Below, in pieces: positions 32,669-54,306 of a DNA stretch of 64,000 nt. A model generated the notes under the pieces. The model was not told the origin of the DNA. It searched no databases and worked only from the letters and a program-made list of their open reading frames with translations. Source of the stretch: Escherichia coli (GTDB lineage Bacteria > Pseudomonadota > Gammaproteobacteria > Enterobacterales > Enterobacteriaceae); the NCBI RefSeq assembly GCF_001677475.2, contig NZ_CP015229.1; one strand, 5' to 3'. The position numbers were made by a program, and so were the translations under genes. The stretch's first letter is position 1. Every line of letters begins with the position of its first letter.

Positions 32669-32682
32669 CACAGGGGGCTGAT

Positions 32683-33403: not shown

Positions 33404-33414
33404 AAGGGGGATGT

Positions 33415-34385: not shown

Positions 34386-34392
34386 GGACGCT

Positions 34393-35133
34393 ATGCCTGT
34401 ACCAAATCCTACAATGCCGGTGAAAGGTGCCGGGACCACCCTGTGGGTTTATAAGGGGAGCGGTGACCCTTATGCGAATCCGCTTTCAGACGTTGACTGG
34501 TCGCGTCTGGCAAAAGTTAAAGACCTGACGCCCGGCGAACTGACCGCTGAGTCCTATGACGACAGCTATCTCGATGATGAAGATGCAGACTGGACTGCGA
34601 CCGGGCAGGGGCAGAAATCCGCCGGAGATACCAGCTTCACGCTGGCGTGGATGCCCGGAGAGCAGGGGCAGCAGGCGCTGCTGGCGTGGTTTAATGAAGG
34701 TGATACCCGTGCCTATAAAATCCGCTTCCCGAACGGCACGGTCGATGTGTTCCGTGGCTGGGTGAGCAGTATCGGTAAGGCGGTGACGGCGAAGGAAGTG
34801 ATCCCCCGTACGGTGAAGGTCACCAATGTGGGCCGTCCGTCAATGGCAGAAGATCGCAGTACGGTAACAGCGGCAACCGGTATGACTGTGACGCCTGCCA
34901 GCTCCTCGGTGGTGAAAGGGCAGAGCACCACGCTGACCGTGGCATTCCAGCCGGAGGGCGCAACTGACAAGAGCTTCCGTGCGGTGTCAGCGGATAAAAC
35001 AAAAGCCACCGTGTCGGTCAGTGGTATGACCATCACCGTGAAAGGCGTTGCTGCAGGCAAGGTCAACATTCCGGTTGTATCCGGTAATGGTGAACTTGCT
35101 GCGGTTGCAGAAATCACTGTCACCGACAGTTAA
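34393..35133 (+). CDS. V: Major tail protein V
   Basis: [31 protein letters not shown]...; near-identical to recalled lambda gpV including the C-terminal Ig-like domain. Confidence 0.95.
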
Positions 35134-35148
35134 TCCGGAGAGTCAGCG

Positions 35149-35571
35149 ATGTTCCTGAAAACCGAATCATTTGAACATAACGGCGTGACCGTCACGCTTT
35201 CTGAACTGTCAGCCCTGCAGCGTATTGAGCATCTCGCCCTGATGAAACGGCAGGCAGAACAGGCGGAGTCAGACAGCAACCGGCAGGTTACTGTGGAAGA
35301 CGTCATCAGAACCGGTGCTTGTGTGGTGGCGATGTCCCTGTGGCATAACCATCCGAAGAAGACGCAGATGCCGTCCATGAATGAAGCCGTTAAACAGATT
35401 GAGCAGGAAGTGCTTACCACCTGGCCCACAGAGGCAATTTCTCATGCTGAAAACGTGGTGTACCGGCTGTCCGGAATGTATGAGTTTGTGGTGAATGATG
35501 CCCCTGACCAGGCAGAGGACGCCGGGCCTGCAGAGCCTGTTTCTGCGGGAAAGTGTTCGACGGTGAGCTGA
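35149..35571 (+). CDS. G: Tail assembly chaperone G
   Basis: 140-aa lambda gpG-like; ends just past the slippery site. Confidence 0.9.
   Translation: MFLKTESFEHNGVTVTLSELSALQRIEHLALMKRQAEQAESDSNRQVTVEDVIRTGACVVAMSLWHNHPKKTQMPSMNEAVKQIEQEVLTTWPTEAISHAENVVYRLSGMYEFVVNDAPDQAEDAGPAEPVSAGKCSTVS
35547..35553 (+). other. Programmed -1 ribosomal frameshift slippery heptamer GGGAAAG (G to G-T fusion)
   Basis: G GGA AAG in the G frame, followed by the T ORF in the -1 frame. Confidence 0.85.
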
Positions 35572-35987
35572 GTTTTGCCCTGAAACTGGCGCGCGAGATG
35601 GGGCGACCCGACTGGCGTGCCATGCTTGCCGGGATGTCATCCACGGAGTATGCCGACTGGCACCGCTTTTACAGTACCCATTATTTTCATGATGTTCTGC
35701 TGGATATGCACTTTTCCGGGCTGACGTACACCGTACTCAGCCTGTTTTTCAGCGATCCGGATATGCATCCGCTGGATTTCAGTCTGCTGAACCGGCGCGA
35801 GGCTGACGAAGAGCCTGAAGATGATGTGCTGATGCAGAAAGCGGCAGGGCTTGCCGGAGGTGTCCGCTTTGGCCCGGACGGGAATGAAGTTATCCCTACT
35901 TCCCCGGATGTGGCGGACATGACGGAGGATGACGTAATGCTGATGACAGTATCAGAAGGGATCGCAGGAGGAGTCCGGTATGGCTGA
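35553..35987 (+). CDS. T: Tail assembly protein T (expressed as G-T frameshift fusion)
   Basis: -1 frame ORF downstream of the slippery site; lambda gpT-like. Confidence 0.85.
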   Translation: MFDGELSFALKLAREMGRPDWRAMLAGMSSTEYADWHRFYSTHYFHDVLLDMHFSGLTYTVLSLFFSDPDMHPLDFSLLNRREADEEPEDDVLMQKAAGLAGGVRFGPDGNEVIPTSPDVADMTEDDVMLMTVSEGIAGGVRYG

Positions 35988-38541
35988 ACCGGTAGGCGAT
36001 CTGGTCGTTGATTTGAGTCTGGATGCGGCCAGATTTGACGAGCAGATGGCCAGAGTCAGGCGTCATTTTTCCGGTACGGAAAGTGATGCGAAAAAAACAG
36101 CGGCAGTCGTTGAACAGTCGCTGAGCCGACAGGTGCTGGCTGCACAGAAAGCGGGGATTTCCGTCGGGCAGTATAAAGCCGCCATGCGTATGCTGCCTGC
36201 ACAGTTCACCGACGTGGCCACGCAGCTTGCAGGCGGGCAAAGTCCGTGGCTGATCCTGCTGCAACAGGGGGGGCAGGTGAAGGACTCCTTCGGCGGGATG
36301 ATCCCCATGTTCAGGGGGCTTGCCGGTGCGATCACTCTGCCGATGGTCGGGGCCACCTCGCTGGCGGTGGCGACCGGTGCGCTGGCGTATGCCTGGTATC
36401 AGGGCAACTCAACCCTGTCCGATTTCAACAAAACGCTGGTCCTTTCCGGCAATCAGGCGGGACTGACGGCAGATCGTATGCTGGTCCTGTCCAGAGCCGG
36501 GCAGGCGGCAGGGCTGACGTTTAACCAGACCAGCGAGTCACTCAGCGCACTGGTTAAGGCGGGGGTAAGCGGTGAGGCTCAGATTGCGTCCATCAGCCAG
36601 AGTGTGGCGCGTTTCTCCTCTGCATCCGGCGTGGAGGTGGACAAGGTCGCTGAAGCCTTCGGGAAGCTGACCACAGACCCGACGTCGGGGCTGACGGCGA
36701 TGGCACGCCAGTTCCATAACGTGACGGCGGAGCAGATTGCGTATGTTGCTCAGTTGCAGCGTTCCGGCGATGAAGCCGGGGCATTGCAGGCGGCGAACGA
36801 GGCCGCAACGAAAGGGTTTGATGACCAGACCCGCCGCCTGAAAGAGAACATGGGCACGCTGGAGACCTGGGCAGACAGGACTGCGCGGGCATTCAAATCC
36901 ATGTGGGATGCGGTGCTGGATATTGGTCGTCCTGATACCGCGCAGGAGATGCTGATTAAGGCAGAGGCTGCGTTTAAGAAAGCAGACGACATCTGGAATC
37001 TGCGCAAGGATGATTATTTTGTTAACGATGAAGCGCGGGCGCGTTACTGGGATGATCGTGAAAAGGCCCGTCTTGCGCTTGAAGCCGCCCGAAAGAAGGC
37101 TGAGCAGCAGACTCAACAGGACAAAAATGCGCAGCAGCAGAGCGATACCGAAGCGTCACGGCTGAAATATACCGAAGAGGCGCAGAAGGCTTACGAACGG
37201 CTGCAGACGCCGCTGGAGAAATATACCGCCCGTCAGGAAGAACTGAACAAGGCACTGAAAGACGGGAAAATCCTGCAGGCGGATTACAACACGCTGATGG
37301 CGGCGGCGAAAAAGGATTATGAAGCGACGCTGAAAAAGCCGAAACAGTCCGGCGTGAAGGTGTCTGCGGGCGATCGTCAGGAAGACAGTGCTCATGCTGC
37401 CCTGCTGACGCTTCAGGCAGAACTCCGGACGCTGGAGAAGCATGCCGGAGCGAATGAGAAAATCAGCCAGCAGCGCCGGGATTTGTGGAAGGCAGAAAGT
37501 CAGTTCGCGGTACTGGAGGAGGCGGCACAACGTCGCCAGCTGTCCGCACAGGAGAAATCCCTGCTGGCGCATAAAGATGAGACGCTGGAGTACAAACGCC
37601 AGCTGGCTGCACTTGGCGACAAGGTTACGTATCAGGAGCGCCTGAACGCGCTGGCGCAGCAGGCGGATAAATTCGCACAGCAGCAACGGGCAAAACGGGC
37701 CGCCATTGATGCGAAAAGCCGGGGGCTGACTGACCGGCAGGCAGAACGGGAAGCCACGGAACAGCGCCTGAAGGAACAGTATGGCGATAATCCGCTGGCG
37801 CTGAATAACGTCATGTCAGAGCAGAAAAAGACCTGGGCGGCTGAAGACCAGCTTCGCGGGAGCTGGATGGCAGGCCTGAAGTCCGGCTGGAGTGAGTGGG
37901 AAGAGAGCGCCACGGACAGTATGTCGCAGGTAAAAAGTGCAGCCACGCAGACCTTTGATGGTATTGCACAGAATATGGCGGCGATGCTGACCGGCAGTGA
38001 GCAGAACTGGCGCAGCTTCACCCGTTCCGTGCTGTCCATGATGACAGAAATTCTGCTTAAGCAGGCAATGGTGGGGATTGTCGGGAGTATCGGCAGCGCC
38101 ATTGGCGGGGCTGTTGGTGGCGGCGCATCCGCGTCAGGCGGTACAGCCATTCAGGCCGCTGCGGCGAAATTCCATTTTGCAACCGGAGGATTTACGGGAA
38201 CCGGCGGCAAATATGAGCCAGCGGGGATTGTTCACCGTGGTGAGTTTGTCTTCACGAAGGAGGCAACCAGCCGGATTGGCGTGGGGAATCTTTACCGGCT
38301 GATGCGCGGCTATGCCACCGGCGGTTATGTCGGTACACCGGGCAGCATGGCAGACAGCCGGTCGCAGGCGTCCGGGACGTTTGAGCAGAATAACCATGTG
38401 GTGATTAACAACGACGGCACGAACGGGCAGATAGGTCCGGCTGCTCTGAAGACGGTGTATGACATGGCCCGCAAGGGTGCCCGTGATGAAATTCAGACAC
38501 AGATGCGTGATGGTGGCCTGTTCTCCGGAGGTGGACGATGA
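35980..38541 (+). CDS. H: Tape measure protein H
   Basis: 853-aa ORF, near-identical to recalled lambda gpH. Confidence 0.95.
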   Translation: MAEPVGDLVVDLSLDAARFDEQMARVRRHFSGTESDAKKTAAVVEQSLSRQVLAAQKAGISVGQYKAAMRMLPAQFTDVATQLAGGQSPWLILLQQGGQVKDSFGGMIPMFRGLAGAITLPMVGATSLAVATGALAYAWYQGNSTLSDFNKTLVLSGNQAGLTADRMLVLSRAGQAAGLTFNQTSESLSALVKAGVSGEAQIASISQSVARFSSASGVEVDKVAEAFGKLTTDPTSGLTAMARQFHNVTAEQIAYVAQLQRSGDEAGALQAANEAATKGFDDQTRRLKENMGTLETWADRTARAFKSMWDAVLDIGRPDTAQEMLIKAEAAFKKADDIWNLRKDDYFVNDEARARYWDDREKARLALEAARKKAEQQTQQDKNAQQQSDTEASRLKYTEEAQKAYERLQTPLEKYTARQEELNKALKDGKILQADYNTLMAAAKKDYEATLKKPKQSGVKVSAGDRQEDSAHAALLTLQAELRTLEKHAGANEKISQQRRDLWKAESQFAVLEEAAQRRQLSAQEKSLLAHKDETLEYKRQLAALGDKVTYQERLNALAQQADKFAQQQRAKRAAIDAKSRGLTDRQAEREATEQRLKEQYGDNPLALNNVMSEQKKTWAAEDQLRGSWMAGLKSGWSEWEESATDSMSQVKSAATQTFDGIAQNMAAMLTGSEQNWRSFTRSVLSMMTEILLKQAMVGIVGSIGSAIGGAVGGGASASGGTAIQAAAAKFHFATGGFTGTGGKYEPAGIVHRGEFVFTKEATSRIGVGNLYRLMRGYATGGYVGTPGSMADSRSQASGTFEQNNHVVINNDGTNGQIGPAALKTVYDMARKGARDEIQTQMRDGGLFSGGGR

Positions 38542-38867
38542 AGACCTTCCGCTGGAAAGTGAAACCCGGTATGGATGTGGCTTCGGTCCCTTCTGTAAGA
38601 AAGGTGCGCTTTGGTGATGGCTATTCCCAGCGAGCGCCTGCCGGGCTGAATGCCAACCTGAAAACGTACAGCGTGACGCTTTCTGTCCCCCGTGAGGAGG
38701 CCACGGTACTGGAGTCGTTTCTGGAAGAGCACGGGGGCTGGAAATCCTTTCTGTGGACGCCGCCTTATGAGTGGCGGCAGATAAAGGTGACCTGCGCAAA
38801 ATGGTCGTCGCGGGTCAGTATGCTGCGTGTTGAGTTCAGCGCAGAGTTTGAACAGGTGGTGAACTGA
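38538..38867 (+). CDS. M: Minor tail protein M
   Basis: 109-aa lambda gpM-like. Confidence 0.92.
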   Translation: MKTFRWKVKPGMDVASVPSVRKVRFGDGYSQRAPAGLNANLKTYSVTLSVPREEATVLESFLEEHGGWKSFLWTPPYEWRQIKVTCAKWSSRVSMLRVEFSAEFEQVVN

Positions 38868-39565
38868 TGCAGGATATCCGGCAGGAAACACTGAATGAAT
38901 GCACCCGTGCGGAGCAGTCGGCCAGCGTGGTGCTCTGGGAAATCGACCTGACAGAGGTCGGTGGAGAACGTTATTTTTTCTGTAATGAGCAGAACGAAAA
39001 AGGTGAGCCGGTCACCTGGCAGGGGCGACAGTATCAGCCGTATCCCATTCAGGGGAGCGGTTTTGAACTGAATGGCAAAGGCACCAGTACGCGCCCCACG
39101 CTGACGGTTTCTAACCTGTACGGTATGGTCACCGGGATGGCGGAAGATCTGCAGAGTCTGGTCGGCGGAACGGTGGTCCGGCGTAAGGTTTACGCCCGTT
39201 TTCTGGATGCGGTGAACTTCGTCAACGGAAACAGTGACGCCGATCCGGAGCAGGAGGTGATCAGCCGCTGGCGCATCGAGCAGTGCAGCGAACTGAGCGC
39301 GGTGAGTGCCTCCTTTGTACTGTCCACGCCGACGGAAACGGATGGCGCTGTTTTTCCGGGACGTATCATGCTGGCCAACACCTGCACCTGGACCTATCGC
39401 GGTGACGAGTGCGGTTATAGCGGTCCGGCTGTCGCGGATGAATATGACCAGCCAACGTCCGATATCACGAAGGATAAATGCAGCAAATGCCTGAGCGGTT
39501 GTAAGTTCCGCAATAACGTCGGCAACTTTGGCGGCTTCCTTTCCATTAACAAACTTTCGCAGTAA
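38867..39565 (+). CDS. L: Minor tail protein L
   Basis: 232-aa lambda gpL-like with C-terminal Cys cluster. Confidence 0.92.
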   Translation: MQDIRQETLNECTRAEQSASVVLWEIDLTEVGGERYFFCNEQNEKGEPVTWQGRQYQPYPIQGSGFELNGKGTSTRPTLTVSNLYGMVTGMAEDLQSLVGGTVVRRKVYARFLDAVNFVNGNSDADPEQEVISRWRIEQCSELSAVSASFVLSTPTETDGAVFPGRIMLANTCTWTYRGDECGYSGPAVADEYDQPTSDITKDKCSKCLSGCKFRNNVGNFGGFLSINKLSQ

Positions 39566-39570
39566 ATCCC

Positions 39571-40314
39571 ATGACACAGACAGAATCAGCGATTCTGGCG
39601 CACGCCCGGCGATGTGCGCCAGCGGAGTCGTGCGGCTTCGTGGTGAGAACGCCGGAGGGGGAAAGATATTTTCCCTGCGTGAATATTTCCGGTGAGCCGG
39701 AGGCGTATTTCCGTATGTCGCCGGAAGACTGGCTGCAGGCAGAAATGCAGGGTGAGATTGTGGCGCTGGTCCACAGCCACCCCGGTGGTCTGCCCTGGCT
39801 GAGTGAGGCCGACCGGCGGCTGCAGGTGCAGAGTGATTTGCCGTGGTGGCTGGTCTGCCGGGGGACGATTCATAAGTTCCGCTGTGTGCCGCATCTCACC
39901 GGGCGGCGCTTTGAGCACGGTGTGACGGACTGTTACACACTGTTCCGGGATGCTTATCATCTGGCGGGGATTGAGATGCCGGATTTTCATCGCGAGGATG
40001 ACTGGTGGCGTAACGGCCAGAATCTCTATCTGGATAATCTGGAGGCGACGGGGCTGTATCAGGTGCCGTTGTCAGCGGCACAGCCGGGCGATGTGCTGCT
40101 GTGCTGTTTTGGTTCATCGGTGCCGAATCACGCCGCAATTTACTGCGGCGACGGCGAGCTGCTGCACCATATTCCTGAACAACTGAGCAAACGAGAGAGG
40201 TACACCGACAAATGGCAGCGACGCACACACTCCCTCTGGCGTCACCGGGCATGGCGCGCATCTGCCTTTACGGGGATTTACAACGATTTGGTCGCCGCAT
40301 CGACCTTCGTGTGA
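39571..40314 (+). CDS. K: Tail assembly protein K (MPN/JAB plus NlpC/P60-like)
   Basis: 247-aa lambda gpK-like (HSHP motif). Confidence 0.9.
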   Translation: MTQTESAILAHARRCAPAESCGFVVRTPEGERYFPCVNISGEPEAYFRMSPEDWLQAEMQGEIVALVHSHPGGLPWLSEADRRLQVQSDLPWWLVCRGTIHKFRCVPHLTGRRFEHGVTDCYTLFRDAYHLAGIEMPDFHREDDWWRNGQNLYLDNLEATGLYQVPLSAAQPGDVLLCCFGSSVPNHAAIYCGDGELLHHIPEQLSKRERYTDKWQRRTHSLWRHRAWRASAFTGIYNDLVAASTFV

Positions 40315-40883
40315 AAACGGGGGCTGAAGCCATCCGGGCACTGGCCACACAGCTCCCGGCGTTTCGTCAGAAACTGAGCGACGGCTGGTATCAGGTACGG
40401 ATTGCCGGGCGGGACGTCAGCACGTCCGGGTTAACGGCGCAGTTACATGAGACTCTGCCTGATGGCGCTGTGATTCATATTGTTCCCAGAGTCGCCGGGG
40501 CCAAGTCAGGTGGCGTATTCCAGATTGTCCTGGGGGCTGCCGCCATTGCCGGATCATTCTTTACCGCCGGAGCCACCCTTGCAGCATGGGGGGCAGCCAT
40601 TGGGGCCGGTGGTATGACCGGCATCCTGTTTTCTCTCGGTGCCAGTATGGTGCTCGGTGGTGTGGCGCAGATGCTGGCACCGAAAGCCAGAACTCCCCGT
40701 ACACAGACAACGGATAACGGTAAGCAGAACACCTATTTCTCCTCACTGGATAACATGGTTGCCCAGGGCAATGTTCTGCCTGTTCTGTACGGGGAAATGC
40801 GCGTGGGGTCACGCGTGGTTTCTCAGGAGATCAGCACGGCAGACGAAGGGGACGGTGGTCAGGTTGTGGTGATTGGTCGCTGA
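40212..40883 (+). CDS. I: Tail assembly protein I
   Basis: 223-aa ORF matching recalled lambda gpI; overlaps K 3' end. Confidence 0.9.
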   Translation: MAATHTLPLASPGMARICLYGDLQRFGRRIDLRVKTGAEAIRALATQLPAFRQKLSDGWYQVRIAGRDVSTSGLTAQLHETLPDGAVIHIVPRVAGAKSGGVFQIVLGAAAIAGSFFTAGATLAAWGAAIGAGGMTGILFSLGASMVLGGVAQMLAPKARTPRTQTTDNGKQNTYFSSLDNMVAQGNVLPVLYGEMRVGSRVVSQEISTADEGDGGQVVVIGR

Positions 40884-40943
40884 TGCAAAATGTTTTATGT
40901 GAAACCGCCTGCGGGCGGTTTTGTCATTTATGGAGCGTGAGGA

Positions 40944-42370
40944 ATGGGTAAAGGAAGCAGTAAGGGGCATACCCCGCGCGAAGCGAAGGACAACCTGAAG
41001 TCCACGCAGTTGCTGAGTGTGATCGATGCCATCAGCGAAGGGCCGGTTGAAGGTCCGGTGGATGGATTAAAAAGCGTGCTGCTGAACAGTACGCCGGTGC
41101 TGGACACTGAGGGGAATACCAACATCTCCGGTATCACGGTGGTGTTCCGTGCCGGTGAGCAGGAGCAGACACCGCCGGAGGGGTTTGAATCCTCCGGCTC
41201 CGAGACGGTGCTGGGTACGGAAGTGAAATATGACACGCCGATCACCCGCACCATTACGTCTGCAAACATCGACCGTCTGCGCTTTACCTTCGGTGTACAG
41301 GCACTGGTGGAAACCACCTCAAAGGGTGACAGGAATCCGTCGGAAGTCCGTCTGCTGGTTCAGATACAACGTAACGGTGGCTGGGTGACGGAAAAAGACA
41401 TCACCATTAAGGGCAAAACCACCTCGCAGTATCTGGCCTCGGTGGTGGTGGATAACCTGCCGCCGCGCCCGTTTAATATCCGGATGCGCAGGATGACGCC
41501 GGACAGCACCACAGACCAGCTGCAGAACAAAACGCTCTGGTCGTCATACACCGAAATTATCGATGTGAAACAGGGCTACCCGAACACGGCACTGGTCGGC
41601 GTGCAGGTGGACTCGGAGCAGTTCGGCAGCCAGCAGGTGAGCCGTAATTATCATCTGCGCGGGCGTATTCTGCAGGTGCCGTCGAATTATAACCCGCAGA
41701 CGCGGCAATACAGCGGTATCTGGGACGGAACGTTTAAACCGGCATACAGCAACAACATGGCCTGGTGTCTGTGGGATATGCTGACCCATCCGCGCTACGG
41801 CATGGGGAAACGTCTTGGTGCGGCGGATGTGGACAAATGGGCGCTGTATGTCATCGGCCAGTACTGCGACCAGTCAGTACCGGACGGCTTTGGCGGCACG
41901 GAGCCGCGCATCACCTGTAATGCATACCTGACCACACAGCGCAAGGCGTGGGATGTGCTCAGTGATTTCTGCTCGGCGATGCGCTGTATGCCGGTATGGA
42001 ACGGGCAGACGCTGACGTTCGTGCAGGACCGACCATCAGATAAGGTGTGGACCTATAACCGCAGTAATGTGGTGATGCCGGATGATGGCGCGCCGTTCCG
42101 CTACAGCTTCAGCGCCCTGAAGGACCGCCATAATGCCGTTGAGGTGAACTGGATTGACCCGAACAACGGCTGGGAGACGGCGACAGAGCTTGTTGAAGAT
42201 ACGCAGGCCATTGCCCGTTACGGTCGTAATGTCACGAAGATGGATGCCTTTGGCTGTACCAGCCGGGGGCAGGCACACCGCGCCGGGCTGTGGCTGATTA
42301 AAACGGAACTGCTGGAGACGCAGACCGTGGATTTCAGCGTGGGTGCTGAAGGGCTTCGCCATGTACCGGG
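40944..42370 (+). pseudogene. J: Tail tip/host-specificity protein J, 5' fragment (~476 codons) truncated by IS insertion
   Basis: Lambda J-like N-terminus ending ...GLRHVPG at the IS junction; track ORF runs a few codons into the IS to a stop. Confidence 0.9.
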
Positions 42371-42463
42371 TATGAGACGACAATAACTCAGTCCGCCTGG
42401 CGCCGATTATTCTGGCCGGTTTTGTAACCTGAGTGTCATTTACATGATCCAACAGGAAATGGC

Positions 42464-43963
42464 GTGACGCTCAATACTTCTCAGGTCAGTTACTATATGA
42501 CTCAGCGTAAGAAAGGTATAACTCAGCATATCTCGGCCATGAAGGCTGGTATCTCAGTCCGTTCTGGTCGTCGGATCGAAAAAGGAGAGTGGGCAAAAAA
42601 CAGTGTTCGGCACTGGCGCACACGCAAAGATCCTCTGGAAGCTGTGTGGGACAGCATGCTTGTTCCTCTGTTGAAAGAGAGGCCGGCTCTGACACCAACA
42701 ACTCTACTGGAGATGCTACAGGATAAATATCCCGGCCAGTACCCCAACAGCCTTCGAAGAACAATGCAACGGCGGGTTCGCGAATGGAAACTACAGTATG
42801 GTACAGAGCAGGAGGTCATGTTCCGCCAGCAACATCAGCCCGGCCTGCGAGGCCTGTCGGACTTTACTGAACTGAAAGGTGTAGTTGTCACCATCGCCGG
42901 TAAGTTGTTGGCGCATAAGTTGTATCACTTCCGTCTGGAATGGAGCCACTGGAGCTGGATGCGGGTTGTTCTGGGTGGTGAGAGCTTCTCTGCTCTGGCT
43001 GAAGGCCTGCAGGAAGCCCTCGGACAACTGGGCGGAGTGCCGGTAGAACATAAAACGGACAGCCTGAGGGCAGCATGGAAACAACAGGGCGAAGATGGAC
43101 GCCGCGAGCTGACTGAGCGTTATGCTACTCTCTGTCAGCACTACGGAATGCAGGGCGTACACAATAATGCCGGTCGGGGCCACGAAAATGGCTCGGTTGA
43201 AAGTGCCCACGGACATCTGAAAAGGCGTATCTGTCAGGCGCTGATACTGCGGGGCAGTAACGACTTCAGCACCATAGAAGAATATCAGGCCTTCATCACT
43301 CAGCAGGTTATGCGGCACAACCGTAACAATCAGGATCTGGTCAAGGAAGAACGTCTTCATCTGAAACCGCTGCCGCTTCGTCGCAGTGCTGACTATGATG
43401 AGCTGACTGTGAGGGTTAGTCGCAGCAGTACCATCAATGTGAAGCACGTCGTCTACAGCGTACCTTCCCGGCTTGTAGGTCAACTGTTACGGGTCAGGTT
43501 ATGGGACGATCGTCTGAGCTGTTACGTTGGCAGCAGCGAGGTCATGAGCTGCCCTCGCGTCAGACCAGAAAAAGGGAAGACGCGGGCCCGTCGTATCGAC
43601 TTCCGACATGTGATCGACAGTCTGGCAAAAAAGCCCGGTGCGTTCTGCCATGCAACGCTGAGAAATGACATCCTGCCGGACGATGAATGGCGGAGGCTGT
43701 GGCGTCGCTTATGTAATCATCTGGAGCCCGATATGGCAGGAAGGCTGATGGTACATGCCCTGAAACTGGCTGCAGGATACGACGATATCTCAGTCGTGGC
43801 AAAAGGTATGGAGCAGATGCTGAATACCCCGGGAAACGTGGATCTGCACCGGCTGATGCGCTTCCTGGGTATAAAAGAAAAGGCGTTGCCGGTAGTCAAT
43901 GTGATACAGCATAACCTGAGCAGTTATGAGCAACTACTGCGTGGCAAGGGAGGTTCGCAGTGA
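42464..43963 (+). CDS. istA: IS21-family transposase IstA
   Basis: 499-aa ORF with N-terminal HTH and DDE-type core; followed by overlapping IstB. Confidence 0.8.
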   Translation: MTLNTSQVSYYMTQRKKGITQHISAMKAGISVRSGRRIEKGEWAKNSVRHWRTRKDPLEAVWDSMLVPLLKERPALTPTTLLEMLQDKYPGQYPNSLRRTMQRRVREWKLQYGTEQEVMFRQQHQPGLRGLSDFTELKGVVVTIAGKLLAHKLYHFRLEWSHWSWMRVVLGGESFSALAEGLQEALGQLGGVPVEHKTDSLRAAWKQQGEDGRRELTERYATLCQHYGMQGVHNNAGRGHENGSVESAHGHLKRRICQALILRGSNDFSTIEEYQAFITQQVMRHNRNNQDLVKEERLHLKPLPLRRSADYDELTVRVSRSSTINVKHVVYSVPSRLVGQLLRVRLWDDRLSCYVGSSEVMSCPRVRPEKGKTRARRIDFRHVIDSLAKKPGAFCHATLRNDILPDDEWRRLWRRLCNHLEPDMAGRLMVHALKLAAGYDDISVVAKGMEQMLNTPGNVDLHRLMRFLGIKEKALPVVNVIQHNLSSYEQLLRGKGGSQ

Positions 43964-44715
43964 GCAATATCCATCACCTTGAACATAGCCTGCGTAAACT
44001 ACGCCTGACACGAGTTGGAGCTGAATGGCACGCTCTGGAAAAACGAGCGCTGGCAGAAGGCTGGACACCATCGCGCTATCTTCTGACGCTATGCAATGAA
44101 GAACTCCTGTGGCGCGAGAGTGAAAAACTGCGTCGTTATAAAAAGGAGGCCCGGTTGCCAGTTGCCAAAACGCTGAGCGAATACGACTTCAGTCAGGTGC
44201 CGGAACTGAATGGAGCTCAGTTCCGGCAACTCTGTGAAACGACAGACTGGGTTGATGCAGGAGAAAACGTTCTGCTGTTCGGAGCCAGCGGGTTGGGGAA
44301 AAGCCATCTGGCGGCAGCGATCGTGGATGGCGTAGTAGGTCAGGGCTACCGGGCCCGGTTCTACAGCGCAGGAGAGCTGTTGCAGGAACTACGTAAAGCC
44401 AGAGCTCAGTTGAAACTGAATGAGCTGCTACTGAAACTGGATCGCTACCGGGTGATAGTGGTGGATGATCTTGGCTATGTCAAACGCGATAGTGCCGAAA
44501 CGGGTGTGCTGTTCGAGTTAATAGCGCATCGCTATGAACGTGGGAGCCTGGTGATAACCAGTAACCATCCGTTCAGCATGTGGGGCAGCATCTTCGTGGA
44601 TGAGACTATGGCGGTGGCTGCGGCAGACAGGCTGATCCATCACGGATATATGTTCGAACTGAAAGGGGAAAGCTACAGGAAAAAGACAGCGAAGGCAGTA
44701 ACAAGCGCGACTTGA
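43960..44715 (+). CDS. istB: IS21-family ATP-binding helper IstB
   Basis: Walker A (LLFGASGLGKSHLA), Walker B (VVDDLGYV) and C-terminal DRLIHHG motif. Confidence 0.88.
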   Translation: MSNIHHLEHSLRKLRLTRVGAEWHALEKRALAEGWTPSRYLLTLCNEELLWRESEKLRRYKKEARLPVAKTLSEYDFSQVPELNGAQFRQLCETTDWVDAGENVLLFGASGLGKSHLAAAIVDGVVGQGYRARFYSAGELLQELRKARAQLKLNELLLKLDRYRVIVVDDLGYVKRDSAETGVLFELIAHRYERGSLVITSNHPFSMWGSIFVDETMAVAAADRLIHHGYMFELKGESYRKKTAKAVTSAT

Positions 44716-44781
44716 TGTCGCCCTGAAGGGTGCGGCCAGTATAGTTGGCGCGAGTCGGCAAAACTAGTTGACGTCTAATAA

Positions 44782-46773
44782 CCGGGCGATGTCATTGAAA
44801 TCTGCGATGATGACTATGCCGGTATCAGCACCGGTGGTCGCGTGCTGGCGGTGAACAGCCAGACCCGGACGCTGACGCTCGACCGTGAAATCACGCTGCC
44901 ATCCTCCGGTACCACGCTGATAAGCCTGGTTGACGGAAGTGGTAATCCGGTCAGCGTGGAGGTTCAGTCCGTCACCGACGGACTTAAGGTGAAAGTGAAC
45001 CGGGTTCCTGACGGCGTTGCAGAATACAGCGTGTGGGGGCTGAAGCTGCCGACGCTGCGCCAGCGCCTGTTCCGCTGCGTGAGTATCCGTGAGAACGACG
45101 ACGGCACGTATGCCATCACTGCCGTGCAGCATGTACCGGAAAAAGAAGCCATCGTGGATAACGGGGCGCACTTTGACGGCGACCAGAGCGGCACGGTGAA
45201 TGGTGTCACGCCGCCAGCGGTGCAGCACCTGACCGCCGAAGTCACCGCAGACAGCGGGGAATATCAGGTGCTGGCGCGCTGGGACACGCCGAAGGTGGTG
45301 AAGGGCGTGAGCTTCCTGCTCCGTCTGACCGTAACAGCGGATGACGGCAGTGAGCGGCTGGTCAGCACGGCCCGGACGACGGAAACCACATACCGCTTCA
45401 CGCAACTGGCGCTGGGGAACTACAGGCTGACAGTCCGGGCGGTAAATGCGTGGGGGCAGCAGGGCGATCCGGCGTCGGTATCGTTCCGGATTGCCGCACC
45501 GGCAGCACCGTCGAGGATTGAGCTGACGCCGGGCTATTTTCAGATAACCGCCACGCCGCATCTTGCCGTTTATGACCCGACGGTACAGTTTGAGTTCTGG
45601 TTCTCGGAAAAGCGGATTACCGATATCAGGCAGGTTGAAACCACAGCCCGCTATCTTGGTACGGCGCTGTACTGGATAGCCGCCAGTATCAATATCAAAC
45701 CGGGCCATGATTATTACTTTTATATCCGCAGTGTGAACACCGTTGGCAAATCGGCATTCGTGGAGGGCGTCGGTCGGGCGAGCGATGATGCGGAAGGTTA
45801 CCTGGATTTTTTCAAAGGCAAGATAACCGAATCCCATCTCGGTAAAGAGCTGCTGGAAAAAGTTGATTTGACGGAGGATAACGCCAGCAGACTGGATGAG
45901 TTTTCGAAAGAGTGGAAGGACGCTAACGATAAATGGAATGCCATGTGGGGCGTCAAAATTGAGCAGACCAAAGACGGCAAACATTATGTCGCGGGTATTG
46001 GCCTCAGCATGGAGGACACGGAGGAAGGCAAGCTGAGCCAGTTTCTGGTTGCCGCTAACCGTATCGCGTTTATTGACCCGGCAAACGGGAATGAAACGCC
46101 GATGTTTGTGGCGCAGGGCAACCAGATATTCATGAACGACGTGTTCCTGAAGCGCCTGACAGCCCCCACCATTACCAGCGGTGGCAGTCCTCCGGTATTT
46201 TCCCTGACATCAGACGGAAAGCTGACCGCTAAAAATGCGGATATCAGTGGTAGTGTGAATGCGAACTCAGGAACGCTCAACAATGTCACGATTAACCAGA
46301 ACTGTACGATTAAGGGCATGCTGGAGGCGACTCAGGTCAGAGGTGACTTCGTTAAAGCTGTATCCAAATCATTTCCGAAACAGGCTGGTACGTGGGGTAA
46401 CACGGAAACACCAAACGGGACGGTTACAGTCACCATCAGCGATGATCATAACTTTGACCGTCAAATCATTATTCCGCCCATTATCTTTAACGGAATAGCG
46501 TATAGCGATCCGGGAAGTGGTAATAACCCGGGAGGTACAAGATACACGGGTTATGGTTTTGAAGTTCGCAAAAACGGTGTATTAATCGCATCCAGAGAAA
46601 CTAAAGGGGCCATTCCCGGTAGCTACAGTGCGGTTATTGATATGCCGAGTGGCAGGGGAAGCGTCACTCTGGAGTTTAAGGTTTTCCATAAAGGCAATCA
46701 GTGGGCAGGTAATATCACCGACTGTACGGTGATTGTGACCAAAAAAGCCGCTTCCGGCATCAGTATTCGTTGA
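44782..46773 (+). pseudogene. J: Tail tip/host-specificity protein J, 3' fragment
   Basis: Resumes in frame ([29 protein letters not shown]...) exactly as lambda J continues after ...HVPG. Confidence 0.9.
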
Positions 46774-46794
46774 AATTGTTATAACCCATATAAG

Positions 46795-46820
46795 GGCACC
46801 AGAAATGGTGCCTTTTTTAT
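46795..46820 (+). terminator. Rho-independent terminator after J
   Basis: GGCACC-AGAAAT-GGTGCC followed by TTTTTTATT. Confidence 0.7.
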
Positions 46821-46842
46821 TGCAGAAAAGCGAGAGGTAATT

Positions 46843-47442
46843 ATGCGTAAACTTTATGCCGCCATTTTGTCCGCAGCCATTTGTCTGGCCGTATCCGGTG
46901 CGCTTGCATGGGCATCTGAACATCAGTCCACGCTGAGCGCGGGGTATCTTCATGCCCGGACCAACGTTCCCGGCAGTGATGATCTGAACGGGATTAACGT
47001 GAAATACCGTTATGAGTTTACGGATACGCTGGGGCTGGTGACGTCATTCAGCTATGCAGGAGACAAGAATCGCCAGCTGACCCGTTACAGCGATACCCGC
47101 TGGCATGAAGATTCCGTGCGTAACCGCTGGTTCAGCGTGATGGCGGGGCCGTCTGTGCGCGTGAATGAATGGTTCAGCGCGTATGCGATGGCGGGTATGG
47201 CTTACAGCCGTGTTTCGACTTTTTCCGGGGATTACCTTCGCGTAACTGACAACAAGGGGAAAACGCACGATGTGCTGACCGGAAGTGATGACGGTCGCCA
47301 CAGCAACACGTCTCTGGCGTGGGGGGCTGGCGTGCAGTTTAACCCGACCGAATCCGTGGCCATTGATATTGCTTATGAAGGTTCTGGCAGTGGTGACTGG
47401 CGCACTGACGGTTTCATCGTGGGTGTCGGTTATAAATTCTGA
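46843..47442 (+). CDS. lom: Lom-like outer-membrane beta-barrel protein (Ail/Lom family)
   Basis: 199-aa ORF with signal peptide and C-terminal ...GVGYKF; position J-lom-stf as in lambda. Confidence 0.85.
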   Translation: MRKLYAAILSAAICLAVSGALAWASEHQSTLSAGYLHARTNVPGSDDLNGINVKYRYEFTDTLGLVTSFSYAGDKNRQLTRYSDTRWHEDSVRNRWFSVMAGPSVRVNEWFSAYAMAGMAYSRVSTFSGDYLRVTDNKGKTHDVLTGSDDGRHSNTSLAWGAGVQFNPTESVAIDIAYEGSGSGDWRTDGFIVGVGYKF

Positions 47443-47467
47443 TTAGCCAGGTAACACAGTGTTATGA

Positions 47468-47496
47468 CAGCCCGCCGGTTCAGGTGGGCTTTTTTG
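47468..47496 (+). terminator. Terminator-like hairpin after lom
   Basis: AGCCCGCC...GGTGGGCT followed by TTTTTTG. Confidence 0.45.
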
Positions 47497-47506
47497 TGGG
47501 GGGAAT

Positions 47507-50446
47507 ATGGCAGTAAAGATTTCAGGTGTACTGAAAGACGGCACAGGAAAACCGGTACAGAACTGCACAATCCAGCTGAAAGCAAAACGTAACAGCACCA
47601 CGGTGGTGGTGAACACGCTGGCCTCAGAAAATCCGGATGAAGCCGGGCGTTATAGCATGGACGTTGAGTACGGTCAGTACAGCGTTATTCTGTTGGTGGA
47701 AGGATGCCCGCCGTCACATGCCGGGACCATCACCGTGTATGAAGATTCCCGACCCGGTACGCTGAATGATTTTCTCGGTGCCATGACGGAGGATGATGCC
47801 CGTCCGGAGGCTCTGCGCCGTTTTGAACTGATGGTGGAAGAGGTGGCGCGTAACGCGTCCGCGGTGGCACAGAACACGGCAGCCGCGAAGAAGTCAGCCG
47901 GCGATGCCGGCACATCTGCCCGTGAGGCGGCAACCCATGCGACTGATGCTGCAGATTCAGCACGTGCAGCCAGCACGTCAGCCGGACAGGCCGCGACGTC
48001 AGCTCAGGAGGCTTTTTCCTGCGCAGGAACGGCATCAGCAAAAGCCTCTGAGGCATCAAAAAGTGCTGCCGCTGCAGAGTCCTCAAAAAGCGCGGCGGCC
48101 ACCAGTGCCGGTGCCGCGAAAACGTCTGAAACGAATGCTGCAGCGTCACAACAATCAGCAGCCACTTCTGCATCCACCGCGACCACGAAAGCGTCAGAAG
48201 CTGCCACCTCAGCCCGGGATGCGTCGGCTTCAAAAGAGGCGGCAAAATCATCAGAAACGAGCGCAGCCTCGAGCGCAAGTAGTTCCGCTTCCTCGGCAAC
48301 AGCGGCAGCAAATTCTGCGAAGGCGGCAAAAACGTCCGAGACGAACGCCAGGTCTTCTGAAACGGCAGCGGAACAGAGCGCCTCAGCTGCGGCAGGTTCA
48401 GAAACTACCGCTGCATCATCAGCCCGTGAGGCGTCAGTCAAAGCGGAGGAGGCTGCAGCCAGTGCCACTGCCGCCGGAAAATCGGCAGAAAGCGCCGCAT
48501 CATCCGCTTCAACAGCCACAACGAAGGCTGGCGAAGCCACTGAACAGGCCAGCGCAGCAGCGAGGTCAGCTTCCGCAGCGAAGACATCCGAAACGAACGC
48601 GAAAGCGTCGGAAACCAGCGCAGAATCCTCAAAAACGGCTGCCGCATCGTCCGCCAGTTCGGCGGCGTCATCGGCCTCATCGGCGTCTGCTTCAAAAGAT
48701 GAGGCGACCAGACAAGCGTCAGCAGCGAAGGGCAGCGCCACGACGGCATCCACGAAGGCAACAGAGGCTGCTGGCAGTGCGACGGCGGCAGCACAGAGCA
48801 AAAGTACGGCGGAATCCGCGGCAACGCGCGCCGAGACAGCGGCAAAACGGGCAGAGGATATTGCATCCGCCGTGGCGCTTGAGGATGCGAGCACGACGAA
48901 AAAGGGGATAGTACAGCTCAGCAGTGCGACCAACAGCACTTCCGAGTCACAGGCGGCAACGCCAAAGGCAGTAAAAGCAGCCAATGACAATGCTGAGAAA
49001 CGTCTGCAGAAAGATCAGAACGGTGCGGATATCCCTGGCAAAGACACCTTTACGAAAAATATTGGTGCCTGCCGTGCCTTCGGTGGGTCAGTAAGCACAA
49101 CAACAGGAAACTGGACGACTGCACAGTTTATCGAGTGGCTGGATTCTCAGGGAGCATTTAACCATCCATACTGGATGTGCAAGGGTTCCTGGTCTTATGG
49201 CAATAATAAAATCATTACTGATACTGGCTGCGGTAATATTCATCTCGCCGGAGCTGTCATTGAAGTAATGGGGATAAAGTCAGCGATGACGATCCGCATT
49301 ACCACTCCGACTACATCCAGCGGTGGCGGAACAACCAACGCCCAGTTTACCTATATTAATCACGGAACAGATTATTCACCTGGCTGGCGAAGGGACTATA
49401 ACTCCAGAAATAAGCCAACGGCATCAGAGATCGGGGCGCTACCGTCAGGTGGAACAGCAGTATCATCAGTTAATCTGGCTTCAAAAGGTCGGGTAGCCGC
49501 GCTGACAGACAATACGCAGGGGGCAGCAGGTCTTGAGTTATACGAGGTGTATAACAACGGATATCCAACAGCGTATGGAAATATCATTCACCTGAAAGGG
49601 ATGACAGCCGTTGGCGAAGGTGAGTTACTCATCGGCTGGAGTGGTACAAGCGGTGCTCATGCTCCGGCATTTATTCGTTCACGACGGGATACGACCGACG
49701 CAAACTGGTCGCCGTGGGCGCAGCTTTACACCTCGGCTCATCCTCCTGCAGAGTTTTATCCAGTCGGTGCACCAATCCCGTGGCCATCAGATACCGTTCC
49801 GTCTGGCTATGCCCTGATGCAGGGGCAGACTTTTGACAAATCTGCATACCCGAAACTTGCAGCGGCTTATCCGTCAGGCGTTATTCCTGATATGCGTGGC
49901 TGGACGATTAAGGGCAAGCCCGCCAGTGGTCGTGCCGTATTGTCTCAGGAACAGGACGGCATTAAATCGCACACCCACAGCGCCAGCGCATCCAGTACGG
50001 ATTTGGGGACGAAAACCACATCGTCGTTTGATTACGGCACTAAATCCACGAATAACACCGGTGCGCATACCCATAGTTTAAGTGGCAGCACGAATGCGGC
50101 TGGTAATCACAGCCATAGAGATGGCCGTCGATTTAACCCCAGTGTTTTTAAAGATACTTATCAATATGGTTATACAAGCTCAGGTCAAAATACCTGGGGG
50201 GTACAAGGCTCAGTAGGTATGTCTACGGGGTGGTTAGCTAATACCAGTACAGATGGTAATCATAGCCACTCACTGTCCGGTACAGCAGTATCTGCAGGTG
50301 CACACGCGCATACTGTCGGTATTGGTGCTCATACGCACTCCGTTGCGATAGGGTCACATGGACACACCATCACCGTTAACGCTGCTGGTAACGCGGAAAA
50401 CACCGTCAAAAACATCGCATTTAACTATATTGTGAGGCTTGCATGA
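47507..50446 (+). CDS. stf: Side tail fibre protein Stf (Ala/Ser-rich repeats; C-terminal HxH repeats)
   Basis: 979-aa ORF; long low-complexity central region; C-terminus [18 protein letters not shown]...[15 protein letters not shown] typical of lambda-type Stf. Confidence 0.85.
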
Positions 50447-51345
50447 TTACGCTCATTCTTTCTGCACCAGTAACAGAAATGGCTGAAGCATTTAAGCGGG
50501 TATTCGCAAATGCAGATAATGTGAATATTGTCGGAAAGCCATTTGAAACAATCAGGGAATTTGACTGCATGGTAAGTGCGGCAAACAGTTTCGGCCTGAT
50601 GGATGGCGGTGTTGATGCCGCCATTACCGCATTCTTCGGTACTCAGTTACAGTCCCGCGTTCAGAATCATATTCTTCGTGAATATCTCGGCGAGCAGCCT
50701 GTAGGTTCTGCATTTGTTATTGAAACGGGGCATAATCATCATCCCTGGCTGGTACATGCGCCAACAATGCGTGTTCCGCTGACAATTGACGGAACAGACG
50801 CTGTATATAACGCAACCTGGGCCGCTCTGCTTGCCATCTTTCAGCACAATAAACACGCAACGACAGACAGGAAAATAAAAACGGTGGTATTCCCTGCAAT
50901 GGGAGCCGGATGTGGTCAGGTGCCGTTTGAAAGTGTTGCCCGGCAGATGAAGCAGGCATGGGATAACTTTAATAAAAAAACAGAATCAATTAACTGGGAA
51001 TACGCACAATCCCGCCAGTCGGCAGTATTTGGCACATATGCATACTGTCCGGGTAATTCTGTTTGCCGTTATGCGGATACTAAATATATTGGATGCGGCG
51101 ATTATCGGACGTATTGCTCACGTTCCGGGCAGGTCTGTATTAACCCTGAACATCAGGCTGATGATGTACTGATACAACATCAGGCTAATAACCGGTTTCG
51201 CCCTGGTTCGCATATACACCGGATTAATCCAGAAAATCCCGTAGGTAATGTCATCTCTGGCGCACATAGCCACGGAAGTAGCATCGTTATTGGTGCTCAC
51301 ACCCATACGCTCAATAAACAATATTCTGTCTCTGATATTAAGTAG
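50443..51345 (+). CDS. Macro-domain (ADP-ribose binding/hydrolase-like) protein with tail-fibre-like His-repeat C-terminus, inserted between stf and tfa
   Basis: ATGA overlap with stf stop; macro motifs [18 protein letters not shown] and [14 protein letters not shown]; C-terminal [18 protein letters not shown] echoes the Stf C-terminus; stop 8 nt before tfa ATG. Confidence 0.6.
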
Positions 51346-51353
51346 AGGTGAAC

Positions 51354-51929
51354 ATGGATTTCAGAATGAGTGAACAACCACGGACCATAACAATTTATAA
51401 TCTGCTGGCCGGAACTAATGAATTTATTGGTGAAGGTGATGCATATATTCCGCCTCATACAGGTCTGCCAGCAAACAGTACCGATATTGCACCGCCAGAT
51501 ATTCCGGCTGGCTTTGTGGCTGTTTTCAACAGTGATGAGGCATCGTGGCATCTCGTTGAAGACCATCGGGGTAAAACCGTCTATGACGTGGCTTCCGGCG
51601 ACGCGTTATTTATTTCTGAACTTGGCCCATTACCGGAAAATGTCACTTGGTTATCCCCGGAAGGGGAGTTTCAGAAGTGGAACGGCACAGCCTGGGTGAA
51701 GGATACGGAAGCAGAAAAACTGTTCCGGATCCGGGAGGCGGAAGAAACAAAAAACAACCTGATGCAGGTAGCCAGTGAGCATATTGCGCCGCTTCAGGAT
51801 GCTGCAGATCTGGAAATTGCAACGGAGGAAGAAATCTCGTTGCTGGAAGCATGGAAAAAGTATCGGGTATTGCTGAACCGTGTTGATACGTCAACTGCAC
51901 AGGATATTGAATGGCCAGCACTGCCGTAG
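51354..51929 (+). CDS. tfa: Tail fibre assembly protein Tfa
   Basis: [41 protein letters not shown]... matches recalled lambda Tfa; SD GAGGTG upstream. Confidence 0.9.
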
Positions 51930-52026
51930 GGTAAAACATATAAATTCTATAATTAGATGTATCTTTCCATTTACGGCAAGGAAGGGGGCTTGGAAGACGT
52001 AAAGCATCTCACACCGAGATTATTTT

Positions 52027-52617
52027 TTATATGTCAGGTGTCTGAAGTTTTGCTTTGGCTCTTAAAATGGTTTGCCGCGAGGTTTTGAATTCCCGGGCAA
52101 TGGCACTTATACTTACACCTGACTTAATTCGTTCGAATACCACCTGTTTCTGTTCTTCATTTAACACAGGTGGTCGACCAAAACGTTTCCCTGCGCCCCG
52201 GGCTCTTACTATCCCGGAATGAGTGCGTTCAAGTAAAAGGTCTCGTTCAAATTCAGCGACTGCTGAAATTACTTGCATCATCATTTTTCCTGTTGGACTG
52301 GTCAGGTCAATGCCCCCCAATGCTAAGCAATGCACTCTGATACCTGTTTCGGTCAGTTGTTCCACTGTTTTCCTGATATCCATTGCATTACAACCAAGGC
52401 GATCCAGTTTTGTCACAATCAATTGATCACCACATTTCAGGCGAGCAAGCAACCGGTTAAAACCAGGACGCTCACTGGTTGCTGCTGAGCCGCTAATGTG
52501 TTCTTCGATTATTTGCTGAGGTTTGATTTTAAAACCTGCACTTTCGATTTCCCGGCGTTGATTTTCGGGGGTCTGATCCAGCGTTGATATCCGACAGTAA
52601 GCAAAAATTCGAGACAT
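52027..52617 (-). CDS. pin: Serine recombinase / DNA invertase (Pin/Hin/Gin family)
   Basis: 196-aa [18 protein letters not shown]... with catalytic Ser motif and C-terminal HTH; adjacent to tfa as in e14/Rac/Qin. Confidence 0.88.
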
Positions 52618-53230: not shown

Positions 53231-53298
53231 GAAGATATTCCTTAAAATATTATTGGTTTTCATTGCAATATTGTATGTCTGATTCAGGATATGTTGAC

Positions 53299-54087: not shown

Positions 54088-54102
54088 AAAAATCCCTCTA
54101 CA

Positions 54103-54146: not shown

Positions 54147-54171
54147 TGTCAATAGAACAAAGATTGCTGCA

Positions 54172-54286: not shown

Positions 54287-54306
54287 TAATCAAAGAGACA
54301 ACAATT

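What the first reader, a model, noticed from the sequence alone, without database searches (positions are those of the whole stretch)
42371..44780. IS21-family element interrupts tail-tip gene J
J is split after ...GLRHVPG by an istA-istB element with imperfect inverted repeats and a 6-bp ACCGGG target duplication; the J frame resumes exactly. The prophage probably cannot make functional tail tips, yet all other structural genes are intact, suggesting a recent insertion.
Basis: partly seen in the sequence, partly recalled or inferred. Interest (0 to 1): 0.45.

Follow-up and report, generated by a model that had tools for sequence, protein, structure and literature searches.

The report
ISEc10 insertion splitting prophage tail gene J
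A common, already-named E. coli jumping gene (ISEc10, IS21 family) has landed in the tail-tip gene J of an otherwise complete lambda-like prophage, which is an ordinary way for a prophage to be disabled.

Summary
Window 42371-44780 is one complete 2,410-bp copy of ISEc10 (IS21 family). It carries istA (499 aa) and istB (251 aa), has imperfect terminal inverted repeats, and is flanked by a perfect 6-bp duplication, ACCGGG. It sits in codon 476 of the lambda-type tail-tip gene J.

Removing the IS and one ACCGGG restores an open 1,137-aa J. That protein aligns end to end with lambda gpJ and differs by 2 residues from the intact J of E. coli M114. M114 carries the same prophage at the same chromosomal site at 99.7% identity. 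The window's two flanks overlap by exactly 6 bp on M114.

All 57 other genes annotated in the M114 prophage are full length in the window. None of 5,426 complete E. coli genomes has either J/IS junction, whereas 4,403 have the uninterrupted site. This points to a recent, strain-specific hit.

Loss of tail-tip function is inferred, not tested, and J supplied by another resident lambdoid prophage could mask it.

This is a known element doing a known thing, so interest is low.

The parts
3184..54368 (+). Lambdoid prophage between yjjG and prfC. It is bounded by a 14-bp direct repeat, ATTATTTCTCACCC (3184-3197 and 54355-54368). Repeat to repeat it measures 51,171 bp, or 48,755 bp without the IS and its duplication.
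   Evidence: The repeat was found. The ends of the deposited phage genome PhiR63_1 map to window 3196 and 54370. Host genes flank it as in M114.
40944..42370 (+). 5' part of tail-tip gene J (codons 1-475 plus two bases of codon 476). As it stands, the ORF runs on into the IS and stops at 42386 (480 aa, ending ...HVPGMRRQ).
   Evidence: The break lies inside the Pfam Phage-tail_3 domain (aa 330-498).
42365..42370 (.). Left copy of the 6-bp target-site duplication, ACCGGG.
   Evidence: 6-bp overlap of the flank alignments on M114.
42371..44780 (+). Complete ISEc10 (IS21 family), 2,410 bp, in the same orientation as J. It is the only copy in the window.
   Evidence: 100% coverage, up to 99.9% identity, 560 records with a near-full-length match, annotated ISEc10; identical ends in other copies; single copy in the window.
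42371..42418 (+). Left terminal inverted repeat (IRL).
   Evidence: 34/48 match to the reverse complement of the right end, 11/13 at the tip.
42464..43963 (+). istA, the IS21-family transposase, 499 aa, GTG start.
   Evidence: NCBIfam NF033546 226 bits (cutoff 160). It differs by 2-4 aa from other ISEc10 IstA proteins and has the same length.
43960..44715 (+). istB, the AAA+ helper ATPase, 251 aa. Its GTG start overlaps the istA stop (GTGA).
   Evidence: NCBIfam NF038214 267 bits (cutoff 200) and Pfam IstB_IS21 209 bits. Walker A GASGLGKS at aa 108 and Walker B VIVVDD at aa 165.
44733..44780 (-). Right terminal inverted repeat (IRR).
44781..44786 (.). Right copy of the 6-bp target-site duplication, ACCGGG. 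TAA at 44779-44781 closes the J frame coming out of the IS.
44787..46773 (+). 3' part of J (last base of codon 476 to the stop). It encodes the Ig-like domains, the tip fibre and the C-terminal receptor-binding domain. The first in-frame start codon after the IS is GTG at 44842.

Best explanation
A single transposition event placed one intact copy of the known element ISEc10 (IS21 family) into codon 476 of J. J is the tail-tip and host-specificity gene of a lambda-like prophage that sits between yjjG and prfC in E. coli.

**Mechanism (inferred from established knowledge of the IS21 family, not tested here).** The IstA transposase, helped by the IstB ATPase on the target DNA, joined the IS ends to staggered cuts 6 bp apart. 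Repair of the gaps produced the ACCGGG duplication.

**Consequence for J (shown from sequence).** The J reading frame now ends 4 codons into the IS. This leaves a 476-residue N-terminal stub cut inside the hub domain. It is separated from the Ig-like domains, the tip fibre and the receptor-binding domain.

**Consequence for the phage (inferred).** Because J starts tail-tip assembly in lambda, this prophage on its own should produce no infectious tailed particles. Expression of the downstream late genes (lom, stf, the macro-domain gene, tfa) from the late transcript may also be reduced by polarity. With the IS, the genome is 51.2 kb, at about the upper packaging limit known for lambda.

**Timing.** Everything else in the prophage is intact, so the event is recent and strain-specific.
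For: - **Identity of the element.** It matches the curated IS21 transposase and IstB models above their cutoffs. It is 98.5-99.9% identical over all 2,410 bp to copies RefSeq annotates as ISEc10. Matches occur in 898 of 5,426 genomes.
- **Ends and duplications.** The ends are the same in 11 other copies, of which 10 have 5-7-bp duplications.
- **Simple insertion.** The window aligns to M114 at 346-42370 and 44781-59145, with the two pieces overlapping by exactly 6 bp on M114. The same 6-bp overlap appears on phage PhiR63_1.
- **Intact J once rejoined.** The rejoined J is 1,137 aa with no stops and 2 aa different from M114 J. It aligns over 1-1136 to lambda gpJ chain 8iyk_J at 2,303 bits. The break falls inside the Phage-tail_3 domain.
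- **Rest of the prophage.** All 57 other M114 prophage CDSs are full length in the window. The only other indels are 1 bp in intergenic DNA and a compensated pair in gene D.
- **Functional phage relatives.** The early region is 99.7% identical to the deposited phage genome PhiR63_1. The late region is about 97% identical to phage 21 and related phage genomes.
- **Uniqueness.** No complete E. coli genome covers either junction.
- **Element activity.** ISEc10 made new insertions next to lpp in CFT073 under selection (PMC7482066).
Against: - Nothing in the sequence contradicts the insertion itself.
- The functional consequences are not tested: no induction, particle or plaque data exist.
- It is not shown that the uninterrupted prophage (M114 type) is itself inducible.
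- Another lambdoid prophage elsewhere in the genome could supply J or repair the gene by recombination. The median is 3 J-segment copies per genome among genomes that have any, and such rescue is documented in PMC2669165.
- One paper gives 2,530 bp for an ISEc10 insertion (PMC8764528), against 2,410 bp here and in 560 records. I could not consult ISfinder to settle the reference length.
Confidence: 0.95

Rival explanations
1. Assembly artefact: the IS is a multi-copy repeat, and the assembler wrongly threaded a copy between two J-containing contigs.
For: ISEc10 is multi-copy in many strains, with up to 14 places per genome. No other complete genome shows this junction.
Against: A misjoin would not create a perfect 6-bp duplication of the target at both IS ends. 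It would not leave the two J halves meeting with exactly 6 bp of overlap on two references either. The duplication length is in the range seen for other ISEc10 copies.
Confidence: 0.02
2. The prophage was already dead before the IS arrived, so the insertion is a neutral hit in disposable DNA rather than the inactivating event.
For: No experiment shows that the M114-type prophage is inducible. M114 annotates one partial YdfR-family pseudogene in the lysis region. ISEc10 is also found in other prophage genes: gpZ in AHB1, a lysozyme gene in N96, and a tail gene on a plasmid. That pattern fits prophages being tolerant landing sites.
Against: - All 57 other annotated CDSs are full length. They include integrase, repressor/cro, the replication protein, Q, holin, lysozyme, terminase, portal, capsid and every tail gene.
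- The early half is 99.7% identical to a deposited phage genome. The late half is about 97% identical to phage 21 and other phage genomes.
Confidence: 0.12
3. The insertion is real but functionally masked. The prophage stays transmissible because a co-resident lambdoid prophage supplies J in trans or restores J by homologous recombination.
For: The J segment is present at a median of 3 and up to 14 places per E. coli genome that has any. Defective lambdoid prophages of O157 Sakai are packaged and transferred with help from other prophages, and they recombine with them (PMC2669165).
Against: The rest of this genome is not available, so a helper is unproven. With the IS, the genome is 51,171 bp, about 105% of lambda's 48.5 kb and at the known upper packaging limit (my own knowledge of lambda packaging limits). 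Packaging of the IS-bearing genome would therefore be inefficient even with J supplied.
Confidence: 0.25

Closest known systems
ISEc10 (IS21 family) as annotated in E. coli CFT073 and many other RefSeq genomes
   Same: It has the same 2,410-bp length, the same ends (TATGAGACG...CGTCTAATA) and the same istA/istB layout and lengths. Nucleotide identity is 98.5% to CFT073 copies and 99.9% to copies in strain OkiPb01695. Duplications are 5-7 bp in the other copies and 6 bp here.
   Different: Only the location differs. No complete E. coli genome in the collection has it in J at this position. There are 2-4 IstA and 1 IstB amino-acid differences from the copies compared.
IS-disrupted lambdoid prophages of E. 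coli O157 Sakai (for example Sp4, with nu1 broken by an IS; PMC2669165)
   Same: A lambda-like prophage disabled by one IS insertion in a morphogenesis or packaging gene, while most other genes remain.
   Different: The Sakai case involves a different IS and a different gene (terminase small subunit there, tail tip J here). The Sakai prophages carry several further defects, whereas this one shows none.
ISEc10 in tail gene Z of a lambdoid prophage in E. coli AHB1 (NZ_OZ547150.1)
   Same: The same IS sits in a tail gene of the same kind of lambda-like tail module, with a 6-bp duplication (GCCTGG).
   Different: The target gene and strain differ, and that copy has a frameshifted istA (2,406 bp).
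IS21, the prototype of the family (plasmid R68.45)
   Same: Two-gene istA/istB organisation with overlapping stop/start, a DDE-type transposase plus an AAA+ helper, imperfect multi-part terminal repeats, and short target duplications. The family features are recalled from my own knowledge. The protein family matches were tested.
   Different: ISEc10 is a different, longer element. Its outermost bases are TA...TA rather than the TG...CA commonly quoted for the family.

Membership tests
IS21 family insertion sequence | Two consecutive same-strand genes, a long istA followed by a short istB, closely spaced or overlapping | tested here: met
   istA is 42464-43963 (499 aa) and istB is 43960-44715 (251 aa), with a GTGA overlap.
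IS21 family insertion sequence | IstA belongs to the IS21 transposase family | tested here: met
   NCBIfam NF033546 (equivalog) scores 226.4 bits against a cutoff of 160 and covers model positions 2-293 of 294.
IS21 family insertion sequence | IstB is an AAA+ helper ATPase with Walker A and B motifs | tested here: met
   NF038214 scores 266.7 bits (cutoff 200) and Pfam PF01695 scores 209 bits. GASGLGKS and VIVVDD are present.
IS21 family insertion sequence | Imperfect terminal inverted repeats | tested here: met
   11/13 and 34/48 matches between the ends.
   6 bp here. 5-7 bp in ten other copies.
IS21 family insertion sequence | Ends usually 5'-TG...CA-3' (a common trait recalled from memory, not a defining one) | tested here: not met
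   All copies start TATGAG... and end ...CTAATA. TG is at positions 3-4 on the left only. This is shared by every ISEc10 copy, so it does not bear on this copy's membership.
ISEc10 (the specific element) | Near-identical over the full length to copies named ISEc10, with the same ends | tested here: met
   98.5-99.9% identity over positions 1-2410 to RefSeq-annotated ISEc10 copies. Identical termini.
ISEc10 (the specific element) | Match to the ISfinder reference entry (length, IR, DR) | not testable with these tools
   ISfinder is not available. One paper quotes 2,530 bp for an ISEc10 insertion, against 2,410 bp here.
Lambda-type tail tip attachment protein J | End-to-end similarity to lambda gpJ and the same domain order | tested here: met
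   The rejoined protein aligns over 1-1136 to 8iyk_J positions 1-1131 at 2,303 bits. Its Pfam domains are FNIII-A_GpJ, Phage-tail_3, Ig_J, Ig_J_second, Phage_Tail_Tip and Ig_GpJ_C, in that order.
Lambda-type tail tip attachment protein J | Position in the H-M-L-K-I-J-lom-stf gene order | tested here: met
Lambda-type tail tip attachment protein J | One continuous reading frame (a working gene) | tested here: not met
   The frame stops at 42386, 4 codons into the IS. In this window J is a pseudogene.

The most novel reading that the evidence does not exclude
The insertion might not be a neutral accident. It could be a selected "lock-in" that keeps the prophage's cargo (lom, the macro-domain gene, cold-shock genes, side tail fibre genes) while abolishing virion production. 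Alternatively, transcription reading out of the IS could express the 643-aa C-terminal J fragment from GTG 44842, which contains the receptor-binding domain, as a free receptor-blocking protein. ISEc10 might also have a real preference for prophage late genes.
Probability: 0.03. Interest if true: 0.45.

Novelty: already known. Interest (0 to 1): 0.08.

Why it matters
The practical value is for annotation. J should be called a pseudogene split by ISEc10, and the prophage should be scored as complete apart from one recent inactivating hit.

It is a clean, datable example of the first step of prophage decay, because a 99.7%-identical uninterrupted copy exists in another strain. It does not open a new question. 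IS disruption of lambdoid prophage genes, and rescue of such prophages by co-resident ones, are both well documented.

Tried and rejected
- **Same insertion elsewhere.** I searched 5,426 complete E. coli genomes with 800-bp probes across each junction. No record covered 80% or more of either probe.
- **Apparent target preference.** Several top hits extended 5-6 bases into the J flank. I checked whether this meant a CCGGG target preference or a longer IS. Fetching three of them showed ordinary 6-bp duplications (GCCTGG, CCGGGA, CCGGTG). The ranking had simply favoured chance flank matches, so no inference about preference is justified.
- **Promoters and terminators.** I scanned the IS and the junctions. 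The numbers were close to shuffled expectation and there was no convincing outward promoter, so nothing usable came of it.
- **Source of the PhiR phage genomes.** I looked for a paper describing them, to show that they are functional phages, and found none.
- **IS-mediated rearrangement.** I considered a rearrangement or a composite transposon. This is rejected because there is only one IS copy in the window and both flanks are collinear with M114.

Full report
**What is at the coordinates.** Reading 42200-45000 and listing ORFs shows a long + strand ORF, 40944-42386. It ends ...GLRHVPGMRRQ* and is followed by two same-strand ORFs of 499 aa (42464-43963) and 251 aa (43960-44715), whose stop and start overlap as GTGA. 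After them, the frame that encodes [12 protein letters not shown]... continues to 46773. ACCGGG occurs at 42365-42370 and again at 44781-44786. The neighbouring bases differ, so the repeat is exactly 6 bp. The sequence between the repeats, 42371-44780, is 2,410 bp. Its two ends are imperfect inverted repeats, matching at 11 of 13 terminal bases and 34 of 48.

**What the inserted element is.**
- The 499-aa protein scores 226 bits against NCBI's curated IS21 transposase model (cutoff 160).
- The 251-aa protein scores 267 bits against the IstB helper ATPase model (cutoff 200) and 209 bits against Pfam IstB_IS21. It has Walker A (GASGLGKS) and Walker B (VIVVDD) motifs.
- A megablast of the 2,410 bp against 5,426 complete E. 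coli genomes finds matches in 898 genomes. In 560 records one place covers at least 80% of the element. Identity reaches 99.9%, and RefSeq calls the genes "IS21-like element ISEc10 family".
- I fetched eleven other copies from unrelated contexts. All begin TATGAGACG and end CGTCTAATA. Ten are flanked by direct repeats of 5, 6 or 7 bp; the eleventh abuts another IS and has none.
- The element boundaries and a 6-bp duplication are therefore what this IS normally produces.
- The window copy has full-length istA and istB. It is 3 nt from its closest relative and 36 nt from the CFT073 copies. It is the only copy in the window.
- ISEc10 has been seen to make new insertions beside lpp in CFT073 under drug selection (PMC7482066). 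It has also been found in the afa promoter region of ST131 strains (PMC8764528). That paper gives 2,530 bp for its insertion, a discrepancy I could not resolve without ISfinder.

**What was hit.**
- Joining 40944-42370 to 44787-46773 gives 3,414 nt with no internal stop, encoding a 1,137-aa protein.
- That protein aligns over residues 1-1136 with the solved lambda tip attachment protein J (8iyk_J, 2,303 bits).
- It has the full J domain series: FNIII-A, Phage-tail_3, two Ig-like domains, the tip fibre and the C-terminal receptor-binding domain.
- The insertion point, residue 476, lies inside Phage-tail_3 (residues 330-498). The stub therefore lacks part of the hub domain and everything distal to it.
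- J sits in the lambda order H-M-L-K-I-J-lom-stf.

**Proof that it is a simple insertion.**
- A 1,200-bp artificial empty site (600 bp of each flank with one ACCGGG) matches 4,403 of 5,426 genomes over at least 80% of its length. The best hits are single ungapped pieces at up to 99.4% identity, all annotated gpJ.
- E. coli M114 carries what is essentially the same prophage at the same chromosomal site, between yjjG and prfC.
- The window aligns to M114 over 346-42370 at 99.73% and over 44781-59145 at 99.35%. The two alignments overlap by exactly 6 bp on M114.
- The same 6-bp overlap is seen on the deposited phage genome PhiR63_1.
- The rejoined J differs from M114's intact 1,137-aa J by 9 nt and 2 aa.

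**Is the rest of the prophage intact?**
- I mapped all 58 CDSs that RefSeq annotates in the M114 prophage onto the window. Every one has the same length and no internal stop, and J is the only gene interrupted.
- The only other indels against M114 within the prophage are a 1-bp difference in intergenic DNA at 22994 and a compensated -1/+1 pair in gene D.
- The early half (3400-20500) is 99.7% identical over 100% of its length to phage PhiR63_1.
- The late half is about 97% identical to phage 21 and related phage genomes.
- The prophage is bounded by a 14-bp repeat at 3184-3197 and 54355-54368. Repeat to repeat it is 51,171 bp with the IS and 48,755 bp without.

**How recent is it?** No complete E. 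coli genome covers either J/IS junction. The duplication is perfect, the IS genes are intact and the J halves show no secondary decay.

**Consequences (inferred, not tested).**
- From established knowledge of lambda, J nucleates tail-tip assembly and binds the receptor. A J cut at residue 476 should therefore prevent formation of infectious tailed particles from this prophage's own genes.
- The IS may also reduce late-operon expression of lom, stf, the macro-domain gene and tfa through polarity.
- The frame leaving the IS is closed by TAA at 44779-44781. The first in-frame start codon after it is GTG at 44842. A consensus scan found no convincing outward promoter.
- There are two caveats:
  - **Trans supply of J.** Genomes with this J segment have a median of 3 copies. 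Defective lambdoid prophages are known to be packaged, transferred and repaired with help from co-resident prophages (PMC2669165), so J could be supplied in trans.
  - **Packaging size.** At 51.2 kb the IS-bearing genome is at about the upper packaging limit known for lambda (my own knowledge), which would work against efficient packaging.

**Comparison with what is known, and verdict.**
- The element meets every defining IS21-family feature I could test. It is a copy of the already named ISEc10.
- The one common family trait it lacks, TG...CA outermost bases, is lacking in all ISEc10 copies and is not defining.
- IS disruption of lambdoid prophage morphogenesis genes is a textbook form of prophage decay. 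The same IS sits in tail gene Z of a lambdoid prophage in strain AHB1 and in a prophage lysozyme gene in strain N96.
It is a known element at a new position, with interest of about 0.08.

Noticed in passing
window 50443-51345 (with 47507-50446, 51354-51929 and 52027-52617): A 300-aa macro-domain protein (Pfam Macro, 68 bits) is encoded between the side tail fibre gene stf and the tail fibre assembly gene tfa. Its start overlaps the stf stop. A Pin-type serine recombinase lies next door. M114 has the same arrangement, but PhiR63_1 has different genes there. A macro domain in a tail-fibre cassette is unusual cargo.
   Followed up: partly
window 10984-11172: Rfam hits to the isrK Hfq-binding RNA (10984-11060, 68 bits) and the C4 antisense RNA (11085-11172, 84 bits) lie inside the Rha/Ash-domain ORF 10624-11775. 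This suggests a P1/P7-style antisense-RNA immunity or antirepressor control module in this lambdoid prophage.
   Followed up: no
window 19434-19873 and 22889-23304: There are two matches to the cspA thermoregulator 5' leader, next to the prophage-borne cold-shock genes (cspB, cspF, cspI) in the Q-to-lysis and lysis-to-terminase regions.
   Followed up: no
window 59146-59344: Two tandem REP-type repeats (Rfam naRNA4, 79 bits each) lie between yjjV and yjjW. The window has about 199 bp where strain M114 has 29 bp, which is an ordinary REP/BIME length polymorphism.
   Followed up: partly
window 30000-32700 and 34000-36000: Differences from the M114 prophage are clustered in genes D/E and U/V (11+3 and 28 mismatches per 2 kb, against 0-2 elsewhere in the prophage). 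A compensated -1/+1 indel in gene D sits at 31293/31295. These look like small recombination patches from another lambdoid phage.
   Followed up: partly
L012 (PV340573.1, phage PhiR63_1) 37894-41305: In this deposited phage genome J is annotated as two overlapping CDSs (37894-39876 and 39848-41305).
   Followed up: no
L013 2202-5192 (AHB1), L005 (N96), L007 (plasmid pe1-39_A): Other ISEc10 copies also interrupt phage genes: lambdoid tail gene Z (duplication GCCTGG, with istA frameshifted), a prophage lysozyme gene, and a phage tail protein gene on a 98-kb plasmid. Whether this reflects a target preference or just tolerance of insertions in prophages was not tested.
   Followed up: partly
window 51697-51895: A full-length Rfam match to IS009 (221 bits) lies inside the tfa coding sequence. 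IS009 is a candidate small RNA, not an insertion sequence.
   Followed up: no
window 20762-21334 region; M114 L011 6854-7189: The YdfR-family gene between holin and lysozyme is annotated as a partial pseudogene in M114, but PhiR63_1 has a longer version (552 bp). I did not check its state in the window.
   Followed up: no
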